64,000 nt of DNA from Naegleria gruberi. Its lineage: Eukaryota. Below are positions 12,247-64,000 of the stretch, one piece after another (the first letter of the stretch is position 1; the number at the start of each line of letters is the position of its first letter). Position numbers and translations under genes: made by a program. The stretch lies in assembly GCA_000004985.1 (NCBI GenBank), contig GG738893.1. One strand, given 5' to 3'. Below the pieces are notes generated by a model. That model was not told where the DNA came from and searched no databases. It was given only the letters and a program-made list of their open reading frames with translations.

Positions 12247-12365
12247 GGCTACGGCCATATCACGATGAATGCACCTCATCCCGTCCGATTTGAGAAGTTA
12301 AGCATCGTCGAGCCACATCAGTACTGAGGTTGGAGACAACTTGGGAACCTGTGGCGCTGTAGTCT
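12247..12365 (+). rRNA. 5S ribosomal RNA, solitary copy followed by a TTTT Pol III terminator
   Basis: GGCTACGGCCATATCACGATGAATGCACCTCATCCCGTCCGATTTGAGAAGTTAAGCATCGTCGAGCCACATCAGTACTGAGGTTGGAGACAACTTGGGAACCTGTGGCGCTGTAGTC TTTT. The 5' GGCUACGGC pairs with 3' GCUGUAGUC (helix I). The conserved AAGUUAAGC loop C region and the GUACU.GG...GGGAA segment are present. Confidence 0.85.
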
Positions 12366-15317: not shown

Positions 15318-15972
15318 TTTGTTGATTGATAAAAATGATTGAATAATAAACCAAAAAGTTTAGCCTAGTGATGAATCATCAAGCAAAGGTCCTAAAGAAG
15401 CTTGTGTTGAAATTGATGAAACAGATATGTCCTGTTAGAAATCCTCCACTTGAAATTTACCAGAGAGCGAATCAATGCATGTTGTTTTTTCGTTTTTTTT
15501 TAGAAATTAAATAACGGTTACTATTGGCGTTTGACCTAATTTTCACTTTACAATTAGTTAATACTGAAGAGATTTATAGACAAGGAAGGTAATCCAATGA
15601 TTGGATTTGCACCTAACAGTATTAATGTAGATGGATGTAATAATTTTACAAAATGTGGATATTGTTGAATGTGAATTGAAAGATGGGACGTTAATTATGG
15701 AGTTGTCTTACCACAAAATCAACCTGAGCTATTTCCTGCCTTTGATGTCAGTGATGCAAATTGTATCTTTGAACTAACAACAAAATGGATTGTATAGTTG
15801 TTTATGAAATATTTACATGATAATTTTTCATGTATACGAAAAACAAACTGTGTATTATTTTGATGAAAATATTCCAATAATGAATATGACATTGTGAGTT
15901 TACTGTTGGAAGTCTGATTTGTTATTGTGATGAGTTGTCATTTACCAATCAAAAAAAAAACAAGAACAACAA

Positions 15973-17367
15973 ATGACCAAGAAGAAAACAGGAATCATGA
16001 CCAACAACGCACCACCATCATCATCACAAATCAAACAACAAGTGCAAGACACAAAAAACCAAACAAGCCTCCTCAAAAAGCAACTCGACTCTATCGTACA
16101 ACAATATGAACAACAATTGGCAAATTTGGAAAAGTTAGAAACTGCCTTGAATGAGAAGGATGAACAAGTCAAAAGTAGAGAAATTCAAGTCGCTCAAAGG
16201 GAACAATCTGTAAAAGATANNNNNNNNNNNNNNNNNNNNNNNNNNNNNNNNNNNNNNNNNNNNNNNNNNNNNNNNNNNNNNNNNNNNNNNNNNNNNNNNN
16301 NNNNNNNNNNNNNNNNNNNNNNNNNNNNNNNNNNNNNNNNNNNNNNNNNNNNNNNNNNNNNNNNNNNNNNNNNNNNNNNNNNNNNNNNNNNNNNNNNNNN
16401 NNNNNNNNNNNNNNNNNNNNNNNNNNNNNNNNNNNNNNNNNNNNNNNNNNNNNNNNNNNNNNNNNNNNNNNNNNNNNNNNNNNNNNNNNNNNNNNNNNNN
16501 NNNNNNNNNNNNNNNNNNNNNNNNNNNNNNNNNNNNNNNNNNNNNNNNNNNNNNNNNNNNNNNNNNNNNNNNNNNNNNNNNNNNNNNNNNNNNNNNNNNN
16601 NNNNNNNNNNNNNNNNNNNNNNNNNNNNNNNNNNNNNNNNNNNNNNNNNNNNNNNNNNNNNNNNNNNNNNNNNNNNNNNNNNNNNNNNNNNNNNNNNNNN
16701 NNNNNNNNNNNNNNNNNNNNNNNNNNNNNNNNNNNNNNNNNNNNNNNNNNNNNNNNNNNNNNNNNNNNNNNNNNNNNNNNNNNNNNNNNNNNNNNNNNNN
16801 NNNNNNNNNNNNNNNNNNNNNNNNNNNNNNNNNNNNNNNNNNNNNNNNNNNNNNNNNNNNNNNNNNNNNNNNNNNNNNNNNNNNNNNNNNNNNNNNNNNN
16901 NNNNNNNNNNNNNNNNNNNNNNNNNNNNNNNNNNNNNNNNNNNNNNNNNNNNNNNNNNNNNNNNNNNNNNNNNNNNNNNNNNNNNNNNNNNNNNNNNNNN
17001 NNNNNNNNNNNNNNNNNNNNNNNNNNNNNNNNNNNNNNNNNNNNNNNNNNNNNNNNNNNNNNNNNNNNNNNNNNNNNNNNNNNNNNNNNNNNNNNNNNNN
17101 NNNNNNNNNNNNNNNNNNNNNNNNNNNNNNNNNNNNNNNNNNNNNACTAAGAAAACAAACACTTCTGATTTGAATTCAAATGTTTTAGGAACAAAATCAA
17201 ATCATTTCAAAGTTAAACTCATATCTAATTGTAATAGTTTAATGATTGGATTTGCACCTAAAAGTATTAATGTGAACGAAACAAATAATAATACAAAATG
17301 TGGATATTATTTATATACTACTACTGGAACCATTTATTCTCAGAATGGAGAATCAAACAAAAGCTAA
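15973..17367 (+). CDS. coiled-coil protein with a C-terminal SPRY-like segment, copy 1 of a local family; interrupted by a 926-bp N-gap
   Basis: The N-terminus is a Q-rich coiled coil (MTKKKTGIMTNNAPPSSSQIKQQVQDTKNQTSLLKKQLDSIVQQYEQQLANLEKLETALNEKDEQVKSREIQ). The C-terminus after the gap reads HFKVKLISNCNSLMIGFAPKSINVNETNNNTKCGYYLYTTTGTIYSQNGE, which is SPRY-like. The middle is unknown (N-run). Confidence 0.5.
   Translation: MTKKKTGIMTNNAPPSSSQIKQQVQDTKNQTSLLKKQLDSIVQQYEQQLANLEKLETALNEKDEQVKSREIQVAQREQSVKDXXXXXXXXXXXXXXXXXXXXXXXXXXXXXXXXXXXXXXXXXXXXXXXXXXXXXXXXXXXXXXXXXXXXXXXXXXXXXXXXXXXXXXXXXXXXXXXXXXXXXXXXXXXXXXXXXXXXXXXXXXXXXXXXXXXXXXXXXXXXXXXXXXXXXXXXXXXXXXXXXXXXXXXXXXXXXXXXXXXXXXXXXXXXXXXXXXXXXXXXXXXXXXXXXXXXXXXXXXXXXXXXXXXXXXXXXXXXXXXXXXXXXXXXXXXXXXXXXXXXXXXXXXXXXXXXXXXXXXXXXXXXXXXXXXXXXXXXXXXXXXXXXXXXXTKKTNTSDLNSNVLGTKSNHFKVKLISNCNSLMIGFAPKSINVNETNNNTKCGYYLYTTTGTIYSQNGESNKS
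16220..17145. other. assembly gap (926 N)
   Basis: Run of n characters. Confidence 1.
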
Positions 17368-19419: not shown

Positions 19420-19469
19420 NNNNNNNNNNNNNNNNNNNNNNNNNNNNNNNNNNNNNNNNNNNNNNNNNN
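19420..19469. other. assembly gap (50 N)
   Basis: Run of n characters. Confidence 1.
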
Positions 19470-20182: not shown

Positions 20183-20457
20183 CCATTACAATAAAATGTA
20201 ATACTATTTAATATTTAATTTATTTAATTTATTTAATTTTTTTTATAATTAAATCCCAAGCTCACTCCAGAAATGATCTTTTTTTCTTTTTTCTTTTTTT
20301 CTTTTTCTACAACTTTATCATTCTTAACAAGTGAGCCATAGGAAAAACATGAGTGCTCCATCACTCACATTCATTGTGAGAGCTTGGCTGATCCCGAAGA
20401 TCACTTTAAAAAAAAGCTCGTACGGGATTACCAATCAAAAAAAAAACAATAAAGAAC

Positions 20458-20723
20458 AAATGACCAAGAAGAAAACAGGAATCATGACCAACAACGCACC
20501 ACCATCATCATCACAAATCAAACAACAAGTGCAAGAAACAAAAAACCAAACAAGCCTCCTCAAAAAGCAACTCGACTCTATCGTACAACAATATGAACAA
20601 CAATTGGCAAATTTGGAAAAGTTAGAAACAGCCTGAATGAGAAGGATGAACAAGTCAAAAGTAGAGAAATTCAAGTCGCTCAAAGGGAACAATCTGTAAA
20701 AGATGAAGAAAATCAAATGAGAA
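20458..20723 (+). pseudogene. second copy of the 5' end of the coiled-coil/SPRY-like family gene (near-identical to 15973..16219), with a 1-bp deletion and truncated by an N-gap
   Basis: 20440..20723 aligns to 15955..16219 with a few substitutions. The copy reads ...EKLETA* (ttagaaacagcctgaatg) where copy 1 reads ...EKLETALNEK (ttagaaactgccttgaatg), a frameshift. It runs directly into gap 20724..20961. This could be an assembly or sequencing artefact rather than a true pseudogene. Confidence 0.35.
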
Positions 20724-20961
20724 NNNNNNNNNNNNNNNNNNNNNNNNNNNNNNNNNNNNNNNNNNNNNNNNNNNNNNNNNNNNNNNNNNNNNNNNNNNNN
20801 NNNNNNNNNNNNNNNNNNNNNNNNNNNNNNNNNNNNNNNNNNNNNNNNNNNNNNNNNNNNNNNNNNNNNNNNNNNNNNNNNNNNNNNNNNNNNNNNNNNN
20901 NNNNNNNNNNNNNNNNNNNNNNNNNNNNNNNNNNNNNNNNNNNNNNNNNNNNNNNNNNNNN
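20724..20961. other. assembly gap (238 N)
   Basis: Run of n characters. Confidence 1.
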
Positions 20962-38959: not shown

Positions 38960-39195
38960 TTTATTTTGATGATGATTTAAGCGAAGCTCACTGTAGCCTT
39001 TTTATTGTATGTTTTCAAAGTCTGTTTGAAATTATCATAAATTGTATGAGTTTTAAAAATTGCCGCCAAAATTTCTAAAGAATCAATAAGTACAAATGGA
39101 GGGAAAAGTTACTTATTGATTATTTCTGATTCAACTAATGATAACAAATAGTGTTGCTCTCTCCTTATTAATTGAGTAATCATCATGTGATTCAT

Positions 39196-40697
39196 CTATT
39201 TTTTCGAAGATGGTTGTTTAGAATTTCTTCTAATCATTTCAACTGTGGTGGCAACATTTTGTTCAGTTTGTTGAAGGGCACCAGCTTTGTTTTCATTTCT
39301 ATTCTTCAATTGTCCACATGCACCAAGAATATCTTGTCCTTTGCTGTGTCTTACCGGTGCTGAGATTCCATTCTTGTAGAGGTATTTGGAAAATTCTTCA
39401 ATTCTTTCATCTGATGAGCATTCAAATCCACTTCCTTCCCATTCATTAAATGCAATCAAATTGACTGAACATGGAATGTCTTTAACCAATTTTACAAGAC
39501 GTTTGGCATCGTCAATAAAGTCATTCACATGATTCAACATGACATATTCGAAAGTGATATGTCTATTATTGTTTTTGAAGCATTGCTCTCTAAGGGTTTC
39601 AAATAAAACCTCCAGAGGGAAAATCTTATTAATTGGCACAATGTTATCTCTCAATTCATTGGTTGTGGCGTGAAGACTGATTGCTAAATTCACTCCCAAA
39701 TCATTGACAACATCTGGAATCAAGTTACATACTCCAGAAGTACTCACAATGATTTTTCTCTTTGAAATTCCACATCCATCACTCAAAATTTCAATGGCCT
39801 TTTTAACATTTTTGTAATTACTGCAATTAAAGGATTATGGTAAATTATTTAAATAATGAAATCAAAAACCTACTAGAGTGGTTCTCCTTCTCCCATAAAT
39901 ACAATATTATTAACAAATGATTTTTCAATAGAGGCTCTCTTTCTTTCTTCCTCTGTCATGTATATTGGAAAGTCCATCAATCTATGTTTAACTGAAACTA
40001 ATTGGCTTACAATTTCTGAAGCCAATAAATTTCTCTCAATAGGAGCTGTTCCAGTTCTGCAAAACTTACAATTCAATGAACATCCAACCTGACTACTCAA
40101 ACACACAGTTCCTCTTCCAAAACTATCACTAGCTTTTGGTGGATGGTAAATATATACTGCCTCAACTTTGTTAAATTGTTTTTGTTCTTTGAGAGTTGGT
40201 TTCTTCATTGGTGAAATTGCAACATCAGCATCAGAAATATTCTGTTGATTACCACATGATGACGATGCTGATGAAGTGGTGGAAACAATTGTACTATCAA
40301 CACTATTATCTGCAACAGGTGGCACATATTTTGGATTTTGAAAAGCAAATAAAAACTTTCTCGTGTGTTTATCCTTCTTGGATTTAATTTCTTCCTCAAT
40401 ATTTCCCAAAATATCAATAGAGTATAGTTCCGATAATGATTGACGATCGGATTTGGTCAAGACTGTAATATCATCAAATTTTCTGGCTCCAAACTTGTAT
40501 ATGAATTTATAAATTTCATTCAATCGGAATGATGATGCAACATGTGGATGAGTCTTTTCCAATATTTCCTTCATTTCTGTCTTGTTTAATCCCATCAGGG
40601 ATTTTCTAACAATTTGTGTTGAATAGAATCTGTGTTGAAAGTTTCCATTGATGACAATTTGTCGAGCACATAAATTTCCTAAAATCAATTTTTGCAT
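39196..40697 (-). CDS. rlmN-like: radical-SAM rRNA/tRNA adenine-C2 methyltransferase, RlmN/Cfr family, with an N-terminal presequence-like extension. Exons 39874..40697 and 39196..39820
   Basis: Full-length colinear match to bacterial RlmN. Ours: RGTVCLSSQVGCSLNCKFCRTGT (compare CVSSQVGCALECKFCSTAQ; CxxxCxxC radical-SAM cluster). Ours: FMGEGEPL|YNYKNVKKAIEILSDGCGISKRKIIVSTSGV (compare [41 protein letters not shown]). Ours: LAISLHATTNELRDNIVPINK (compare [21 protein letters not shown]). Ours: NLIAFNEWEGSGFE and GQDILGACGQL (compare DDIDAACGQL). The 53-bp intron 39821..39873 (GTAGGT...TTGCAG) sits exactly between GEGEPL and YNYKN. The N-terminal ~35 aa (MQKLILGNLCARQIVINGNFQHRFYSTQIVRKS) is basic and hydroxylated like a mitochondrial presequence. 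Confidence 0.85.
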
Positions 40698-41082
40698 TTT
40701 TTTTCAATCAAATTAAATTTTGAATTTTTTAATAAATTGGAATGAATAATGCTCTTTCCTAATAAATTCCATTCTGAAGAGTTGTGCTGAAATATGAAAT
40801 ACTATTCATTGTTAAATAACAACATTCTCAAACCAAACAAACCAATCATTGTTCTATCAATTAAAGAGCTAGACCATTCTTCTTCTTTCTAATAAATTCC
40901 TCAAATACAAATAGTTATCTTTGTAGTTTACTAACTACATCATCCTTTCCCTGTTACACACAGTCACTGAACTTTGCGTGATAGAGTGGTCGTGTCACTA
41001 AATTTGTTCTCAATCACTATCGAAACTCCACTTAACTCGTTACCCTGTCAGTTTAACTGCACTTCTATCACATACAAAAAAA

Positions 41083-41982
41083 ATGATGAAAAACCTCTCA
41101 TCCAAAATTATAGCAAGTTTGCTCTTGTTGAGTTTGGTTGTTCTCTTTACATTTGTTTCATCAACAAATGCCAAGAAGAGCGAATCATCCTTGTCAACTC
41201 AACTCGCCTCTGCTTTTAAACTTGAAAAGAAGCAAAGAAAGAAGACAAGAACATCAAAGAGAAGACCAGTTAGTAAACGTCTTTTGAAGAAGAGACGTCA
41301 ACTCTGTCGTAGAATTAGACTTGTCAAGAAGCAAATTAAAAAACTCACATTCAAGATTGCTAAAGCCTCTGATAGAGCCATGACCAAGATTGTTAGAAAG
41401 ATCAAGGTTAGAAAACTCTTGCTCCGTGCTTTGAGAAGAAAGCTCAGATCACTCAAGAGAAAGATTCAAAGAAAGCAAAGAAAGGTCAAGAAATCTCAAA
41501 AGAAGAATCGTCGTTTGACTTCTACCTTGAGAAAGCTCAAGAGAAAGGTCCTTAGATTGGCCAGAAAGCAACAACAAAAGAGAAGATCACCAAGAAGAAG
41601 ACCAAGAATTATCATCCTTGCATTCAATCGTGCTCAATTCTTCAACAAATTGGTGAGAAATAGCAAACATCGTTTCTATGGAAAGAGAGGATTCAGAAAG
41701 TATGCTCGTTTGTTGAGTTTACTCAAATTGGTCAGAGCTAAGAAGGCTGCTTTGACAAAGAAGAGAAACTTCTACGCAAAGAAGGAAAAGAGAATTGTCT
41801 CCTTGTTGAGAAAATTAAAACAAAGATGGTCTGTTGGAAGAAGTAGAAGATCATCAAAGAGAACCAAGATTACAAGAATTGTCTTGAGAAATGTTGACTC
41901 AAAGAAGAAGGTTAAACTCGTCATTCCAAAGAGATTGAAGAAGAAGGTTAAGAAGATTGTTGTTTATAGTGTTAAACAATAA
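41083..41982 (+). CDS. secreted polybasic protein (signal peptide plus ~270 aa that is ~45% Lys+Arg)
   Basis: Signal peptide MMKNLSSKIIASLLLLSLVVLFTFVSSTNA | KKSESS.... The mature part is nearly uniform K/R-rich alpha-helical-looking text (KRLLKKRRQLCRRIRLVKKQIKKLTFKIAKA...RKLKRKVLRLARKQQQKRRSPRRRPR...). Confidence 0.6.
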   Translation: MMKNLSSKIIASLLLLSLVVLFTFVSSTNAKKSESSLSTQLASAFKLEKKQRKKTRTSKRRPVSKRLLKKRRQLCRRIRLVKKQIKKLTFKIAKASDRAMTKIVRKIKVRKLLLRALRRKLRSLKRKIQRKQRKVKKSQKKNRRLTSTLRKLKRKVLRLARKQQQKRRSPRRRPRIIILAFNRAQFFNKLVRNSKHRFYGKRGFRKYARLLSLLKLVRAKKAALTKKRNFYAKKEKRIVSLLRKLKQRWSVGRSRRSSKRTKITRIVLRNVDSKKKVKLVIPKRLKKKVKKIVVYSVKQ

Positions 41983-47833: not shown

Positions 47834-50800
47834 ATGAATTTACTTCATGCTTTCACCATCTTGTTGTTGGTTTTCACTCTCATACTCCAAATAACCAATG
47901 GACCTGTCGAATGCCAAACCATCAACACAATTGCTGGCTCGCTTCCATATGGCTATAATGGTGATAATCAAGTGGCAATAAAAGCAGAACTCTACCAACC
48001 AAAACAATTGGCTTATTACAATAACGAGGTTTATATTGCTGACAGTGCCAATCATATGATTAGAAAAATACTTTCGAATGGGACAATAGTTTCGATTGCT
48101 GGTTGGATGGGTTCACCTGGCTATAATGGTGATAATCAATTGGCTAACATGGCTAAACTCAATGCTCCAAATGGTTTGGCAATTTCTTCTGCCACAGGTC
48201 ACATCTATATCGCGGGTTAGTTGTTAATTTTTATTGGAATTTAACTTTTGCAAGATACTCAAAATTATCGAGTTAGAAAGATTGTAAATGGTGTCATTTC
48301 AACAATTTCTGGAACTGGAGTACAAGGCAGTTGTTCAGATGGAGTTCTAGCTATCAACTGTGCATTATACTCTCCATCCAATATTGCTATTCGAACTATT
48401 GAAGGAGTTGGTGATGAAATTTACATTGCCGATTCGAGTATCGTTAGGAAGATTGGAACAGATGGAAAAATCTATAGATATGCAGGTGGAGGCAATGAAA
48501 ATATTGAGTATGGCTCTGCAGTTTCAGCTCAACTTGCCTCTCCTCTCAGTGTTGGAATTTCACCCACTACAGGAGAGCTCTTCATTGGAATAGGAATCAA
48601 TTATATTATTAGAAAGGTCTTTCTGAATGGTACAATAGTTTCTGTAGCGGAGAAGGAAAGTTCTATTCAGGGTTTTGTTTCGGGTGTTACTGGAATATCA
48701 TTTTCAAATACTTCTCTCTATTACACAGAGTATCAGGCACGTGTTAAACAACTATTCCTCTCAAATGGAACATTTTCTGTTATTGGTGGAAACCTTAATG
48801 TTATGGTTACCAATTATCAAGATAACATTTTGGCAACAGATGCCACTCTATTAGGTCTGAAAGGAATTGCATTCTCTCCAGAAAAGAATGAAGTGTATAT
48901 CTCTGAATATGATTCATTCGCTACTAATGGAAGAGTGAGAAAGATTGGATCTGATGGATATATTGTAACAGTGGCAGGTAATTTGACAAGTTTGAATAGT
49001 GGATATAATGGTGATGATATTATGGCCACGGATGCAAAATTGTATAGACCTGAGGCTGTAATAGTTTCTAATAGTGGGGATGTCATAATTTCAGATACTG
49101 GTAATAGTAGAATTAGAAAGATTCTGTCTAGTGGTAAAATTGTGACCATTGTTGGACAAGGAAACTTTGGTAATACTGCAAATTATAATGGAGATGGTAT
49201 TCCTGCTATTGCTGCAAATATCAAATTTCCAAGTGCTATTTTACTTTCATCTAGCAATGAATTGTACATTGCCGATTTTGGTAATTATCGAGTTCGAAAG
49301 GTACTTGCTAACGGAACGATAACAACCATCGCAGGAACAGGTTCTAACATAGAATCTACTGCCTTAGATTTGGCCATTAATGTTGGAATTGGATCACCAA
49401 TAGGTTTAGCTATTTTTGGTGATGAGGTTTATTTCACCACAAATTCCAATAGAGTTAGAAAGATTTTGAGTAATGGAACTTTAATAGTCTATGCAGGTAC
49501 TGGAACAGTTGGCTATGATTCAAATAATGTATTGGCCGTTAATGCTAAACTAAATGCTCCAACATTCTTGGCTGTTTATCCTAATGGAGATTTGCTGATT
49601 TCAGATAGTTTCAATTATATGATTAGAAAAGTTCTGACAAATGGTACCATTATTCGAGTTGCAGGAACTGGAACATTTGGATACAATGGAGACAACATCT
49701 TGGCTATAAATGCCCAATTGGCTAATCCACAAGGAATTCATATACTTTCGAACGGTGATATTCTATTCTCAGATCAGTTCAATTATAGGGTGAGAAAAAT
49801 TCTGACCAATGGAACAATTTTAACAGTTGCTGGATCTGGAACTTTTGGATACAATGGAGAAAATTTACCAGCTTTAAGTACACAATTATATGCAGCTCAG
49901 GGCTTGGCAGTTTCACCTATCGATGGTTCGATTATTTTAGCTGACACGTCAAATCACAGAATTAGGAAAATATTAGATTTCTGTGATTCGAATAGAACTT
50001 GTAATAATAATGGTTTCTGTAACACAACCTCTAATCAATGCGTTTGTTATTCGGGATGGATTGGGTCAACATGTTCCTCCTTTTCATGTGATGCCTTAAA
50101 CAATTGTAATGGAAATGGAAAGTGTATTGGAAATAACACTTGCCAATGTGATTTGGGATGGAGAGGAAATTCTCAATGCAGTCAATATTCATGTGAAATT
50201 TACAATAATTGTTATGGAAATGGAATGTGTGTGAAAAACAATACATGTGAGTGTTATTCTGGATGGAGAGGATCATCTGCTAATTGTTCACAGTTTTCAT
50301 GTGATGGAGTGGCAAACTGCTCAGAACATGGTATTTGTATGGGAAATAATTCATGCTCATGTCACACTGGATGGAAAAATAACCAATGCTCAGAAATTTC
50401 ATGTGACATTCTCAATAATTGTTATGGAAATGGCATTTGTAAAACGAATAATACATGTGAATGCAATTCAGGATGGAAAGGTGCCTCAAATTGCTCTCTT
50501 TTCACATGTGAAGGTGTTGGAAATTGCAGTTCTCATGGAAAATGTATTGGAAATAACACTTGCCAATGTGATTTGGGATGGAAAGGAAATTCTCAATGCA
50601 GTCAATTTTCTTGTGAGATTTACAATAATTGCAATGGAAACGGATATTGTAAAAGTAGCAATAGTTGTGAATGTAATTCTGGATGGAAAGGTTCATTAGA
50701 TTGTTCCCAATTCTCATGCGAAGGCGTCAACAATTGTTCATCTCATGGTATTTGTTATGGAGCCAATACTTGTGTATGTGAAAAGGGATGGAAAGGAAAT

Positions 50801-52102
50801 TCTCAATGTTCTCGTCCATCATGTGAAGAATTGCAGAATTGTAATGGTAATGGAAACTGCACACTCAATGGCAACTGTTCCTGTAATAGTGGCTGGGAGG
50901 GAGCTGATTGTTCCACCATTTCAAAAGTGATAGCAGCCAATGAATCCAATAATAATACTGTGACCATTGTAGTGACAGTTGTGGCTGTAGTCGTTGTTTT
51001 ATTGATTATTGCTGCCATTGTGATAATAGTCATAGCAGTTATATTGTCAAGAAAGTATGTGAAGAAACCTAGCAATGAGTCGAAGCATGAAACAATTTTG
51101 AAGAATGATTTTGAGCTCATTGATGAAAATACGAATAGCAATACCATGACGTCGATGAAACCTGTTGAAACCATCCAATCGACGTCAATGAACGAAACCT
51201 CAATAGTTTCAGATTACCCATCTGATTCATTTCTTAGCTCAACAAAAGTTTCCTCCATTGTTTCGTCATCAGCAAAACCACTCACTCCAACTAACTCTTC
51301 AAGTCAATTCTCAATGCTTAAGGATCGTTATCAGATACAGGAAGTAATTGGGCAAGGATCTTTCGGCAAATGTTTTCTTTGTTTAGATTTGAAAAAACAA
51401 AATCAACCAGTTGCTATCAAAACCATAAGTATAGGAGAGAACAAACACTCAAAGATCATTGATGAATGCTCCAAGACTATTTCTTACAAACATCCAAGAT
51501 TGGTACAAGTTTATGAATTCTTCGAATCTGAACTTCTCAATTCAATTTGCATTGTAATGAAATTTTACAATGGAGATTTGGAAACACTATTGAAAAAGCA
51601 ACAAGGATTCCTACCTGAAAGTATGATCATCAAAATGATGAAACAATTAGGTGATGGTTTGGATTATCTTCACAATGAAAAGATGATTATTCACAGAGAT
51701 ATCAAACCAAAGAATATTTTCATTGAATCATTCGATATTGAAAGAGAGGAAATCAATGTAGTTATTGGAGATTATGGAGAAGCAAAGGATCTGGGAGAAA
51801 CCAGCAATACAGTTGCAGGAACAATTATCTACATGGCTCCAGAGGTCTTTTCCAGAAAATATGATTGTAGCGCTGATATATTTTCTCTGGGAGTGACACT
51901 TGTACAAAGTATGTCAGCAAGTGGATTCGATTTCTCAGTCACGGACAAACTCATGTACGAAGCAGAGGAGAGTGTACTGCAAAGAGTGAGTGAACATTTA
52001 CTTTCCAGAAACTATTCGATTCATTTGTGTGAGTTTGTAATTTCCATGTTATCAAGAGATCCTAAAAAGAGACCTACCTGTTTAGATATTAAGAATTATT
52101 GA
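47834..52102 (+). CDS. receptor-type protein kinase with a signal peptide, ~11 NHL repeats, ~12 tenascin-type EGF repeats, a TM helix, and a kinase domain. Exons 47834..48215 and 48255..52102
   Basis: Signal peptide MNLLHAFTILLLVFTLILQITNG. NHL blades end in ...N(H/Y)(M/R)(I/V)RK(I/V) (SANHMIRKI, TQNYRVRKI, GNSRIRKI, FNYRVRKI, SNHRIRKI ...). A 39-bp GTTAGT...CAAG intron (48216..48254) lies between blades 2 and 3. EGF repeats follow (CxCxSGWxGxxCSxFSC, 49980..50900). The TM helix is VTIVVTVVAVVVVLLIIAAIVIIVIAVIL. Kinase motifs: GQGSFGK, AIK, HRDIKPKNIF, DYG, YMAPE. Confidence 0.8.
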
Positions 52103-62983: not shown

Positions 62984-63720
62984 CTTCTTTTTAATTGTTG
63001 TTGCTTAACTTTTTTTCTTTAGTTGTTGTTCTTGTCAAAATGACGCGATCACTCCATGTTTATGAATGACGAGAAATCATCAACTTGCTGGAAAGATGGT
63101 GAAAAAAAAGTGGCGCCATTCCAATCATGTTCTGATATTGTAAATGGATAACTTTTACGCGCATCTCTACGGACATTAAGGGAATTTACTTGAATATTTT
63201 GTTGTTGTTTTACATGTTTAATTTACTTGCTTGATTTTGTTTAATTCAAGACATGAAAGTGCAAACAAATTCCATTGGTGGTAGTACATCAATTTAATTA
63301 CATTTTTTGTTGTTTTGCCAGATCGTGAGATGAAAATTTTAAGGATTTGGCAATTATTGAATAAAGACTTGATGTTATTTGAAAAGATTTCAAAGTTGGC
63401 TCAATCTTCAGCTAATTATCAAAAGATTGTTGTTTGATTTCTTGTGTTGTTTCAAAATAAAGTACTTTAAAACACAAAAAAGTTGTTTTGCCAAATTGCT
63501 TAAAATCATGTGCGAAGCCAATCTCCAGACGTGGCAATTGAGAATTGAAATGAATCTATTTATTTGCTAAACATAATACTTACAGTTTTAATACAGAACT
63601 ATTAACTGAGTCAACTGTTAGATATTAAATACCAAGCAAATTCTTTTGATAATCTGAGGTTAGTAGTATGCTAAAATGAATGCCACACGATGAAATACCT
63701 TAATTATACCAAAATAACAA

Positions 63721-63809
63721 GGGCGGTTAGCTCAGCGGTAGAGCACCGGATTGCAAAGTTAATTGCAGCAGACATCCGATGGTCACGTGTTCGATCCACG
63801 TACCACCCT
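63721..63809 (+). tRNA. tRNA-Cys(GCA): tRNA-Cys (anticodon GCA) with a ~17-nt intron 3' of the anticodon
   Basis: GGGCGGT-TA-GCTC-AGCGGTA-GAGC-A-CCGGA-TTGCAAA-[gttaattgcagcagaca]-TCCGA-TGGTC-ACGTG-TTCGATC-CACGT-ACCACCC-T. D and T arms are canonical and U33 is present. The intron contains TGC complementary to anticodon GCA. One C4:A69 mismatch in the acceptor stem lowers confidence. Discriminator is U. Confidence 0.6.
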
Positions 63810-64000
63810 TCCTTTTACTGCCACTTCCTATAATAATTTGCCAATAGATCAATACTATTTTTTGTTGCCTTTAGTGCAGCATCCACTGCCTCGGTCACTG
63901 TTTTCATATTCACTGAAGGCTCTTTCATTTTATCAAGTCTTGATTTAGAAATTTGCAAGTAATTGAGAGCTGCCTTAGCATGTTGGGAATATTGTTACGT

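What the first reader, a model, noticed from the sequence alone, without database searches (positions are those of the whole stretch)
39196..40697. Full-length RlmN/Cfr radical-SAM RNA methyltransferase with a presequence and a 53-bp intron, in a metazoan-like genome
RlmN (m2A2503 23S rRNA / m2A37 tRNA methyltransferase) is a bacterial and organellar enzyme that animals generally lack. Here a colinear homolog is present, with CxxxCxxC, the GEGEPL motif, LAISLHA..E(L/I)RD.IVPINK and the C-terminal AACGQL. The intron sits precisely between GEGEPL and the next conserved block, and there is an added basic N-terminal ~35-aa extension resembling a mitochondrial targeting peptide. This looks like a domesticated bacterial gene, possibly methylating mitochondrial rRNA/tRNA. 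Cfr-type paralogs of this family confer antibiotic resistance by C8 methylation, so target specificity is worth asking about.
Basis: partly seen in the sequence, partly recalled or inferred. Interest (0 to 1): 0.6.

Follow-up and report, generated by a model that had tools for sequence, protein, structure and literature searches.

The report
Naegleria nuclear RlmN RNA methyltransferase gene
This is an intact, intron-containing nuclear gene of the amoeba Naegleria gruberi (not an animal) for an RlmN-type radical-SAM RNA methyltransferase, probably sent to the mitochondrion; it belongs to an old, patchy eukaryotic family that resembles alphaproteobacterial RlmN, so it is a modest extension of known biology.

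Summary
On the minus strand, two exons (40697..39874 and 39820..39196) flank a 53-nt GT-AG intron and encode a 482-aa protein with every RlmN catalytic feature.

The interpretation needs correcting in three ways.
- The genome is Naegleria gruberi. The protein is 100% identical to XP_002673123.1 / NAEGRDRAFT_71844, which is annotated only as "predicted protein".
- It is RlmN-type, not Cfr-type, by HMM score, tree and predicted fold.
- It is not a one-off domesticated bacterial gene. Orthologs occur in N. lovaniensis, N. fowleri, Willaertia and Acrasis. The next closest relatives are eukaryotic: Amoebozoa, early-diverging fungi, a chytrid and marine protists. They share an MG(Q/E)GEP motif where bacteria and plants have MGMGEP.

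All named bacterial best hits are Alphaproteobacteria, at about 46% identity against about 40% for beta/gamma. This fits a mitochondrial endosymbiont origin, but my neighbour-joining trees do not resolve that node.

The 33-residue N-terminus has no acidic residues and an R-3 cleavage motif (RFY|S), and it is disordered in the model. That fits a mitochondrial presequence, but only weakly.

Most likely function (inferred): m2A methylation of mitochondrial LSU rRNA (the A2503 equivalent) and/or tRNA A37. Novelty is low to moderate.

The parts
39874..40697 (-). Exon 1: Met1 to the first two bases of the Tyr275 codon. It covers the leader, the RlmN N-terminal domain, a lineage-specific insertion, Cys199, CxxxCxxC and GEGEPL.
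   Evidence: ORF list. Splice reconstruction gives a 1449-nt CDS. Product identical to XP_002673123.1.
39821..39873 (-). Spliceosomal intron: 53 nt, GT-AG, phase 2 in the Tyr275 codon, 23% GC.
   Evidence: Removing it restores the colinear GEGEPLYNYKNV block seen in all homologs. If retained, there is an immediate in-frame TAG. The same intron, with one substitution, is in an independent metagenome contig.
39196..39820 (-). Exon 2: third base of the Tyr275 codon to Lys482, plus the TAG stop (39198..39196). It holds the rest of the radical-SAM core, the C-terminal GACGQL and a non-hydrophobic tail.
40599..40697 (-). Residues 1-33, the putative mitochondrial presequence. K+R = 5, D+E = 0, first acidic residue at position 41, R-3 type MPP motif R23-F-Y|S26.
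   Evidence: Feature count. pLDDT below 50 for residues 1-25. Fungal and amoebozoan relatives carry clearer R/S-rich presequences. No dedicated predictor was available, so this is an inference.
40416..40598 (-). RlmN N-terminal (RNA-binding) helical domain, residues 34-94.
   Evidence: Pfam PF21016, 23.9 bits against a cutoff of 24. Aligned end to end by TIGR00048. pLDDT 93-97 with helices 39-49, 56-69 and 82-91.
40176..40337 (-). Low-complexity insertion of about 55 residues (about 121-174) between two beta-strands. It is found only in Naegleria and Willaertia and is predicted to be disordered.
   Evidence: Alignment A1. pLDDT 42-62 over residues 131-170.
40101..40103 (-). Cys199, equivalent to E. 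coli RlmN Cys118, which resolves the covalent enzyme-RNA intermediate.
   Evidence: HMMER alignment to 3rf9: TLC118VSSQ aligns with TVC199LSSQ. Invariant in A1 and A3. The residue's role is taken from PMC10838301 and from established RlmN literature.
40059..40082 (-). C206-SLN-C210-KF-C213, the radical-SAM [4Fe-4S] ligands, equivalent to E. coli C125/C129/C132.
39876..39893 (-). G269EGEPL274, the SAM-binding 'GGE'-type motif. The context VFMGEGEP replaces the bacterial V(M/L)MGMGEP.
   Evidence: Every named protein with G(Q/E)GEP is eukaryotic. Plant RLMNL1-3 keep MGMGEP.
39316..39318 (-). Cys443, equivalent to E. coli Cys355, the methyl-carrying cysteine, within GACGQL.
   Evidence: Alignment to 3rf9. 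Invariant in all alignments.

Best explanation
This is a functional Naegleria gruberi nuclear gene (NAEGRDRAFT_71844) for an RlmN-type class A radical-SAM methyltransferase.

Proposed mechanism, by homology with E. coli RlmN:
- The C206/C210/C213 [4Fe-4S] cluster cleaves SAM to a 5'-deoxyadenosyl radical.
- A methyl group pre-loaded on Cys443 is added to C2 of a target adenosine.
- Cys199 resolves the protein-RNA crosslink.

The product is most likely imported into the mitochondrion through its 33-residue acid-free N-terminal leader. There it would make m2A at the A2503-equivalent position of the mtDNA-encoded LSU rRNA and/or at A37 of mitochondrial tRNAs.

The gene belongs to an old, patchily retained eukaryotic RlmN family found in Heterolobosea, Amoebozoa, early-diverging fungi and other protists. 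The family is marked by MG(Q/E)GEP. Its closest bacterial relatives are alphaproteobacterial, which fits inheritance from the mitochondrial endosymbiont followed by many losses.

Shown: gene structure, family assignment, conserved catalytic residues, eukaryotic orthologs, alphaproteobacterial similarity. Inferred: enzymatic activity, substrate, mitochondrial location, endosymbiotic origin.
For: Family and catalytic residues:
- TIGR00048 RlmN equivalog scores 304.8 bits, above its 290 cutoff; the Cfr models fall far below theirs.
- All five catalytic cysteines align to E. coli RlmN.
- The AF2 model (pLDDT 84.8) best matches E. coli RlmN 5hr7/3rfa: E 1e-33 to 1e-30, TM 0.85-0.91. Cfr matches at only 4.7e-17.
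- In NJ trees, RlmN separates from Cfr at 100% bootstrap.

Native eukaryotic gene:
- Identical to XP_002673123.1, with a GT-AG intron.
- GC3 0.26 and codon-usage r = 0.91 against neighbouring genes.
- The flanking genes are eukaryotic: PI-PLC, PH domain, Vps4-like AAA ATPase, receptor kinase.
- Orthologs in N. lovaniensis (79%), N. fowleri (76%), Willaertia (66%) and Acrasis (48%) form a clade with 95-96% bootstrap.
- The N. lovaniensis ortholog and the N. fowleri paralog have introns within 11 nt of the same site.

Wider eukaryotic family:
- An exhaustive HMMER search puts eukaryotes next after the gene's own cluster: Jimgerdemannia, Umbelopsis, Furculomyces/Smittium, Balamuthia, Luapelamoeba, Vermistella, Irineochytrium and an MMETSP protist.
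- They share G(Q/E)GEP, which no named bacterium in the sample has.

Alphaproteobacterial affinity:
- Every named bacterial top hit is alphaproteobacterial.
- Mean identity is 46% to alphas, 40% to beta/gamma, 35% to Firmicutes and 32% to Cfr. The same ranking holds for all 28 eukaryotic members tested.
- The motifs L-x-(D/E)-(F/W)-P, GEPLYN and TFEYVML are shared with alphas only.

Targeting:
- The leader has K+R = 5, D+E = 0 and an RFY|S motif, and it is disordered.
- Alphaproteobacterial leaders of similar length are acidic.
- Fungal and amoebozoan relatives have classic R/S-rich presequences.
- The C-terminal tail is hydrophilic, unlike the tail anchor of Toxoplasma RlmN (PMC5749711).
- Naegleria mtDNA is gene-rich, with 42 protein genes and 20 tRNA genes (PMC4202320). 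That supplies mtDNA-encoded tRNA substrates; that it also encodes its own rRNAs rests on my own knowledge.
Against: - No targeting predictor or localisation data were available.
- The leader's amphipathic moment is only moderate (0.34).
- The Willaertia model has only a 9-residue leader and the Acrasis model is N-terminally truncated.
- The protein was not found in the part of the N. gruberi mitochondrial proteome supplement that is held. That file is truncated, so this is inconclusive.
- NJ bootstrap support is weak: 28-38% for eukaryotes plus alphas as a clade, and 23-27% for eukaryote monophyly.
- Non-alphaproteobacterial sampling was small: four beta/gamma sequences and three Firmicutes.
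- I found no report of m2A in any mitochondrial rRNA or tRNA.
- Plant RLMNL3 and Toxoplasma RlmN show that eukaryotic RlmNs can act outside organelle matrices.
Confidence: 0.6

Rival explanations
1. The enzyme is a genuine RlmN but works in the cytosol or on the mitochondrial surface. It would methylate A37 of nuclear-encoded tRNAs, as Arabidopsis RLMNL3 (cytosolic tRNA) does, or sit like the outer-membrane Toxoplasma RlmN.
For: - Plant RLMNL3 is a cytosolic tRNA m2A37 methyltransferase.
- TgRlmN sits on the outer mitochondrial membrane facing the cytosol.
- The N. gruberi leader is short and only moderately amphipathic, and the Willaertia ortholog model has almost no leader.
- The protein was not seen in the held part of the mitochondrial proteome table.
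Against: - The leader has no acidic residue in its first 40 positions and carries an R-3 motif.
- N. lovaniensis and N. fowleri orthologs have 70-residue S/T/R-rich leaders, and fungal and amoebozoan relatives have classic presequences.
- There is no C-terminal transmembrane anchor.
- The family differs from plant clades I-III, which keep MGMGEP, and resembles alphaproteobacterial RlmN.
Confidence: 0.25
2. The gene is a recent horizontal transfer from a bacterium into Naegleria, or bacterial contamination of the assembly.
For: Eukaryotic RlmN-like genes have a patchy distribution, which has been read as multiple HGT events (PMC10838301). Identity to Alphaproteobacteria is only about 40-49%.
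Against: - The gene has a spliceosomal intron, native GC3 and native codon usage.
- It is embedded among eukaryotic genes.
- Orthologs are found across Heterolobosea, 96% bootstrap.
- An independent environmental contig carries the same gene and intron.
- The nearest relatives in the exhaustive search are other eukaryotes that share a derived motif.

An ancient HGT into an early eukaryote, rather than endosymbiotic gene transfer, is not excluded.
Confidence: 0.07
3. It is a Cfr-like C8 methyltransferase (m8A2503) that alters the antibiotic sensitivity of the mitochondrial ribosome.
For: It belongs to the same superfamily as Cfr and shares the catalytic cysteines. Some fungal relatives are auto-annotated as 'radical SAM enzyme, Cfr family'.
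Against: - The Cfr HMMs score 164-172 bits against cutoffs of 468-550, while the RlmN equivalog passes its cutoff.
- Identity is 32% to Cfr(C)/Cfr(D) and 46% to alphaproteobacterial RlmN.
- Cfr is the outgroup at 100% bootstrap.
- The fold match to Cfr is 16 orders of magnitude weaker than to RlmN.
Confidence: 0.03

Closest known systems
Bacterial RlmN (E. coli YfgB; PDB 3RF9/3RFA/5HR7), the dual-specificity m2A2503 23S rRNA and m2A37 tRNA methyltransferase; especially alphaproteobacterial RlmN
   Same: - Full-length colinearity: N-terminal helical domain plus radical-SAM core.
- CxxxCxxC and both mechanistic cysteines (C118/C355 equivalents), the GxGEP motif, LAISLHA...VPINK and CGQL.
- Passes the TIGR00048 equivalog cutoff.
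- Predicted fold TM 0.85-0.91.
- Shares GEPLYN, TFEYVML and L-x-(D/E)-(F/W)-P with alphaproteobacterial members.
   Different: - Nuclear gene with an intron.
- Basic rather than acidic N-terminal leader.
- A disordered insertion of about 55 residues after the N-terminal domain.
- VFMGEGEP in place of VMMGMGEP, and NLIAFNEWEGSGF in place of NLIPFNPWPG.
- Only 40-49% identity.
- Activity and substrates are untested.
Fungal 'clade VI' RlmN-like proteins of Duan et al. 2024 (PMC10838301), plus the amoebozoan homologs found here (Balamuthia, Luapelamoeba, Vermistella)
   Same: - Eukaryotic nuclear genes that are closest to alphaproteobacterial RlmN.
- They share the derived MG(Q/E)GEP motif.
- They carry N-terminal presequence-like extensions.
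- None has been characterised.
   Different: - The Naegleria/Willaertia/Acrasis 'A' lineage is more divergent, with NLIAFNEW and E instead of Q in the motif.
- N. fowleri and N. lovaniensis also have a second, more canonical paralog 'B' (P0200, P0358), which was not found for N. gruberi.
- Heterolobosea and Amoebozoa were not part of the published six-clade scheme.
[quoted passage not shown]
   Same: Nuclear-encoded eukaryotic RlmN homologs with proven m2A activity. They set a precedent for organelle targeting and for paralogs that split the rRNA and tRNA substrates.
   Different: Different clades: cyanobacterial-like, deltaproteobacterial-like, and one with no close prokaryotic relative. They keep MGMGEP. 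They are plastid or cytosolic, not mitochondrial.
Toxoplasma gondii TgRlmN (PMC5749711)
   Same: A protist RlmN homolog associated with the mitochondrion.
   Different: TgRlmN is anchored in the outer membrane by a C-terminal transmembrane domain and faces the cytosol. The Naegleria protein has a hydrophilic C-terminus and an N-terminal leader instead.
Cfr / Cfr(C) / Cfr(D) resistance methyltransferases
   Same: Same superfamily, fold and cysteine chemistry.
   Different: They methylate C8. They are plasmid-borne in bacteria. They are the outgroup in trees. The Cfr HMM cutoffs are missed by about 300-390 bits.

Membership tests
RlmN (TIGR00048 / EC 2.1.1.192) | Whole-protein score above the curated equivalog cutoff | tested here: met
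   304.8 bits against a cutoff of 290, E 7e-91, covering residues 30-451 and profile positions 5-347 of 355.
RlmN (TIGR00048 / EC 2.1.1.192) | Radical-SAM CxxxCxxC cluster motif | tested here: met
   C206-x3-C210-x2-C213 aligns to E. coli C125/C129/C132. Pfam PF04055, 40 bits against a cutoff of 29.5.
RlmN (TIGR00048 / EC 2.1.1.192) | The two mechanistic cysteines: the methyl carrier (Ec C355) and the resolving cysteine (Ec C118) | tested here: met
   C443 in GACGQL and C199 in TVCLSSQ. Both are invariant across 60 aligned sequences.
RlmN (TIGR00048 / EC 2.1.1.192) | RlmN N-terminal RNA-binding domain (PF21016) | tested here: inconclusive
   Pfam gives 23.9 bits against a cutoff of 24, just below it. 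However, the domain is aligned within TIGR00048 and modelled as a three-helix domain at pLDDT 93-97.
RlmN (TIGR00048 / EC 2.1.1.192) | Canonical MGMGEP motif | tested here: not met
   The motif reads FMGEGEP: the Gly-x-Gly-Glu-Pro backbone is kept, but Met is replaced by Glu. Related eukaryotes have Gln at this position. This is a clade-specific variant whose functional effect is unknown.
RlmN (TIGR00048 / EC 2.1.1.192) | Catalyses C2 methylation of A2503 in LSU rRNA and/or A37 in tRNA | not testable with these tools
   Needs biochemistry or RNA mass spectrometry.
RlmN fold | Predicted structure superposes on solved RlmN better than on other radical-SAM enzymes | tested here: met
   Foldseek: 5hr7 E 1.9e-33 with TMt 0.85; 6fz6 TMt 0.91; Cfr 4.7e-17; the next family (PFL-AE) 8e-9.
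Cfr (TIGR04432 / NF000424 / NF011024) | Score above the curated Cfr cutoffs | tested here: not met
   163.7, 172.1 and 170.6 bits against cutoffs of 550, 530 and 468.
Cfr (TIGR04432 / NF000424 / NF011024) | Branches with Cfr in a phylogeny | tested here: not met
   Cfr(C) and Cfr(D) lie outside an RlmN clade that contains the query, at 100% bootstrap.
Mitochondrial matrix proteins with a cleavable presequence | N-terminal basic, acid-free, amphipathic leader with an MPP cleavage motif | tested here: inconclusive
   33 residues, K+R = 5, D+E = 0, RFY|S at 23-26, disordered. But muH is only 0.34, and no TargetP or MitoFates prediction was available.
Mitochondrial matrix proteins with a cleavable presequence | Experimental detection in mitochondria | tested here: inconclusive
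   Accession and sequence are absent from the held part of the N. gruberi mitochondrial proteome table in PMC8134430. The stored file is truncated.
Endosymbiont-derived (alphaproteobacterial) nuclear genes | A monophyletic eukaryotic clade sister to, or within, Alphaproteobacteria with support | tested here: inconclusive
   Best hits, identity ranking and shared motifs all favour alphas. NJ support for eukaryotes plus alphas is only 28-38%. No ML tool was available.

The most novel reading that the evidence does not exclude
The Naegleria gene may be one visible member of an unrecognised, LECA-age mitochondrial RlmN family. That family would derive from the alphaproteobacterial endosymbiont and be marked by MG(Q/E)GEP. 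It would survive in Discoba, Amoebozoa, early-diverging fungi and assorted protists, and be lost in animals and Dikarya.

This would imply that m2A exists in mitochondrial rRNA and/or tRNA of these lineages; I found no report of it in any mitochondrion. In Naegleria species with two paralogs (A and B), the rRNA and tRNA duties may have been split, as in chloroplasts.
Probability: 0.35. Interest if true: 0.5.

Novelty: new member of a known kind. Interest (0 to 1): 0.3.

Why it matters
If the protein is mitochondrial and active, it would add a radical-SAM m2A modification to the set of mitochondrial rRNA and tRNA modifications. None is currently described in animals or yeast.

It would also show that another bacterial ribosome-maturation activity was inherited from the endosymbiont and then lost piecemeal.

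There is a practical angle as well. In bacteria, A2503 methylation status changes sensitivity to drugs that bind the peptidyl-transferase centre. The enzyme is present in the pathogens N. fowleri and Balamuthia and absent from humans.

As it stands, though, this is an already annotated but unnamed gene of a well-understood family, so its immediate significance is modest.

Tried and rejected
- Metazoan origin: rejected, because the protein is 100% identical to an N. gruberi protein.
- Cfr identity: rejected.
- Contamination or recent HGT: rejected.
- A clean indel signature linking eukaryotes to alphas in the 222-275 region: the length is too variable to use. Only the (D/E)(F/W)P motif is informative.
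- NJ phylogenies with 169, 52 and 57 taxa: deep nodes are unresolved. In one rooting Proteobacteria nest inside a paraphyletic eukaryote grade, probably a long-branch artefact. No ML or Bayesian software was available.
- The genome-contig scan used motifs that are biased towards alpha-type sequences, so it is weak evidence on its own.
- Literature: no paper in the held library links RlmN with Naegleria, Acanthamoeba or mitoribosomes in a relevant way. Atkinson et al. 2013 could not be read.
- N. gruberi mitochondrial proteome supplement: no hit, but the file is truncated. No supplements are held for the Acanthamoeba proteome paper.
- Search for an N. gruberi copy of paralog B: none appeared among the hits (after two time-outs). 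Absence from the genome was not proven.
- Segmental duplication suggested by two 444-aa ORFs: rejected, since there is no DNA similarity and the Pfam domains differ.
Full report
**1. Observation**

The feature is real and lies on the minus strand. An ATG at 40697 opens an 824-nt exon (40697..39874). It is followed by a 53-nt intron (39873..39821; GTAGG...TTGCAG; 23% GC). Then comes a 625-nt exon (39820..39196) ending in TAG.

Without splicing, the frame stops immediately after Leu274. With splicing, the 1449-nt CDS encodes 482 residues. The junction reads ...VFMGEGEPL-Y-NYKNVKKAIE..., and this is colinear, without gaps, with every homolog aligned.

One correction: the C-terminal motif is GACGQL, not AACGQL.

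**2. Source organism**

The spliced product is identical over all 482 residues to Naegleria gruberi XP_002673123.1 / EFC40379.1. This is locus NAEGRDRAFT_71844, UniProt D2VS80, named only "predicted protein". So the window is N. gruberi nuclear DNA, not a metazoan.

- The neighbours are ordinary eukaryotic genes: PI-PLC, a PH-domain protein, a Vps4-like AAA ATPase, and an EGF/NHL receptor kinase. The last of these may explain the "metazoan-like" impression.
- GC3 (0.26) and codon usage (r = 0.91 against neighbours) are native.
- A 1.6-kb environmental metagenome contig is 99% identical and includes the intron. The gene is therefore neither an assembly artefact nor contamination.

**3. Family assignment**

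- NCBIfam's RlmN equivalog TIGR00048 scores 304.8 bits against a cutoff of 290. The three Cfr models score 164-172 bits against cutoffs of 468-550.
- The best solved relative is E. coli RlmN, at E 2.6e-60; Cfr is at 1.7e-30.
- The alignment to 3RF9 places Cys199 on Ec C118, Cys206/210/213 on C125/129/132, and Cys443 on C355. These are the five residues that carry out the RlmN ping-pong methyl transfer. Their roles are as summarised in PMC10838301 and in established RlmN literature.
- An AlphaFold2 model built from a 60-sequence alignment has mean pLDDT 84.8 and pTM 0.81. Low confidence is confined to residues 1-25, about 131-170 and the C-terminal tail.
- Foldseek against the PDB gives E. coli RlmN first (E 1.9e-33, TM 0.85-0.91), Cfr at 4.7e-17, and other radical-SAM enzymes at 1e-8 or weaker.
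- Pfam's RlmN_N domain is marginal by score (23.9 against 24). It is nonetheless modelled confidently as a helical domain.

**4. Relatives**

Orthologs are found in N. lovaniensis (79%), N. fowleri (76%), Willaertia magna (66%) and Acrasis kona (48%). Several unnamed contigs with eukaryotic neighbours (WD40, Sec7/Ras) also carry it. Together they form a clade with 95-96% NJ bootstrap. They share NLIAFNEW(E/D/Q)GSGF, where bacteria have NLIPFNPWPG.

An exhaustive HMMER scan of 1.84 billion cluster representatives found 2060 relatives at E ≤ 1e-30. The representatives ranking just below the gene's own cluster that could be named are eukaryotic:

- Mucoromycota (Jimgerdemannia, Umbelopsis)
- Harpellales (Furculomyces, Smittium)
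- a chytrid (Irineochytrium)
- Amoebozoa (Balamuthia, Luapelamoeba, Vermistella)
- an MMETSP protist
- a second Naegleria paralog "B" (N. fowleri FDP41_001815; N. lovaniensis C9374_011684)

Of the sequences retrieved, 92 carry G(Q/E)GEP in place of the canonical GMGEP. Every one of these that has a name is eukaryotic. No named bacterium has the motif, and plant RLMNL1-3 keep MGMGEP. This is best read as a shared derived character of one eukaryotic family. That family overlaps the fungal "clade VI" that Duan et al. 2024 described as closest to alphaproteobacterial RlmN. Their survey did not include Heterolobosea or Amoebozoa.

**5. Bacterial affinity**

- All named bacterial best hits in three searches are Alphaproteobacteria: Rhizobiales, Rhodospirillales, Kiloniella, Holosporaceae and Jidaibacter.
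- Over 348 trimmed columns, the query is 46% identical to alphas (maximum 49%), 40% to beta/gamma, 35% to Firmicute RlmN and 32% to Cfr.
- All 28 members of the eukaryotic group show the same ranking, with a gap of 4-10.5 percentage points (mostly 5-10).
- The motifs GEPLYN, TFEYVML and L-x-(D/E)-(F/W)-P are shared with alphas but not with beta/gamma or Firmicutes.

NJ trees robustly give four results: RlmN apart from Cfr (100%); eukaryotes plus Proteobacteria apart from Firmicutes (94%); alphaproteobacterial monophyly (95-98%); and the heterolobosean A clade (95-96%). They do not resolve eukaryotes plus alphas (28-38%) or eukaryote monophyly (23-27%).

The alphaproteobacterial, and hence mitochondrial, origin is therefore the best-supported reading, but it is not demonstrated.

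**6. Age in the eukaryotic genome**

- N. lovaniensis A has two introns. One of them (116 nt) interrupts GE-G|EPL.
- N. fowleri B has one intron (136 nt), in the Leu codon of GEPL|Y.
- N. gruberi A has its intron in the next codon, Tyr.
- Willaertia A has no intron.

Three introns within 11 nt of one another in orthologs and paralogs suggest an old intron with some sliding, or a favoured insertion site. Either way, this argues against a recent arrival.

**7. Targeting and function (inferred)**

Thirty-three residues precede the RlmN N-terminal domain. They hold five Lys/Arg and no Asp/Glu; the first acidic residue is at position 41. They include R23-F-Y|S26, a textbook R-3 motif for the mitochondrial processing peptidase, and they are disordered in the model.

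Alphaproteobacterial RlmNs have leaders of similar length, but theirs are net acidic. So the change is in composition, not in added length.

The N. lovaniensis and N. fowleri orthologs, the N. lovaniensis B paralog and the fungal and amoebozoan relatives have longer or more classic R/S/T-rich leaders. The C-terminus is hydrophilic, unlike the tail-anchored outer-membrane TgRlmN.

Naegleria mtDNA encodes 42 proteins and 20 tRNAs; that it also encodes its own rRNAs rests on my own knowledge. Bacterial-type substrates are therefore available.

I conclude that the enzyme most likely makes m2A on mitochondrial LSU rRNA (the A2503 equivalent) and/or tRNA A37. Its cluster would presumably be reduced by the mitochondrial ferredoxin system; that last point is an inference.

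Weaknesses:
- Amphipathicity is moderate.
- The Willaertia model has a short leader.
- There is no proteomic confirmation in the truncated table I could read.
- I found no report of m2A in any mitochondrion.

A cytosolic tRNA role, as for plant RLMNL3, is the main rival.

**8. Lineage-specific features**

- A disordered low-complexity insertion of about 55 residues (about 121-174) sits between two beta-strands. It links the N-terminal domain to the core and occurs only in Naegleria and Willaertia.
- The Met-to-Glu change in the GxGEP motif.
- The NLIAFNEW change.

The functional meaning of all three is unknown.

**9. Verdict**

The gene is already in public databases, but unnamed. Eukaryotic RlmN-like proteins are known in plants, Toxoplasma and fungi. 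What is new is limited to three points:
- the family extends to Heterolobosea and Amoebozoa;
- the MG(Q/E)GEP signature marks it;
- some Naegleria species have two paralogs.

Interest is low to moderate.

Noticed in passing
L095:3001-4384 (N. fowleri) and protein P0358 (N. lovaniensis): N. fowleri and N. lovaniensis carry a second, more canonical RlmN paralog 'B'. It is 415 aa and 511 aa in the two species, and the N. lovaniensis copy has an N-terminal extension of about 110 aa starting MLKKNFHRFFGRIL. Its best non-Naegleria hits are Mucorales fungi and Rhodospirillales. No N. gruberi or Willaertia copy appeared in the search, so N. gruberi may rely on paralog A alone.
   Followed up: partly
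window 39821-39873; L093:4974-5089; L095:3657-3792: Introns in N. gruberi A, N. lovaniensis A and N. fowleri B all fall within 11 nt of each other inside the GEGEPLY coding block, but at three different codon positions. Willaertia A has no intron. This could be intron sliding or a preferred insertion site.
   Followed up: partly
window 40176-40337 (-): A Ser/Thr-rich, low-complexity insertion of about 55 residues in RlmN, shared only by Naegleria and Willaertia. It is predicted to be disordered (pLDDT 42-62).
   Followed up: partly
window 12247-12365 (+): A full-length 5S rRNA gene (Rfam RF00001, 103 bits), standing alone among protein-coding genes.
   Followed up: no
window ~63720-63812 (+): tRNA-Cys(GCA) with a 17-nt intron at the canonical 37/38 position. 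Default ARAGORN missed it; Rfam and ARAGORN -i found it.
   Followed up: yes
window 41083-41982 (+): A 299-aa ORF directly upstream of the RlmN gene and transcribed divergently from it. It has a hydrophobic N-terminus and an extremely Lys/Arg-rich body, and no Pfam hit. Its GC3 is 0.40 and its codon-usage correlation is only 0.47, against 0.85-0.92 for the neighbouring genes. It may be a real, unusual basic protein or a spurious ORF.
   Followed up: no
window 15942-16218 and 20428-20704; N runs 16220-17145, 19420-19469, 20724-20961: A 278-bp direct repeat (97.8% identical) abuts two assembly gaps. The 16-18 kb low-GC reading (0.166) in the composition profile is an artefact of the N run.
   Followed up: partly
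window 48248-52102 (+): A large ORF that combines NHL repeats and teneurin-like EGF repeats with a C-terminal protein kinase domain. This animal-like receptor-kinase architecture in a heterolobosean is the likely source of the 'metazoan-like' impression.
   Followed up: no
L096 (ENA ERZ929261, run ERR1078381, 1622 bp): An environmental metagenome contig is 99% identical to window 39150-40780, including the intron. Prokaryotic gene calling split it into two ORFs (P0004 and P0124). This shows how eukaryotic genes end up in metagenome protein catalogues as fragments.
   Followed up: yes
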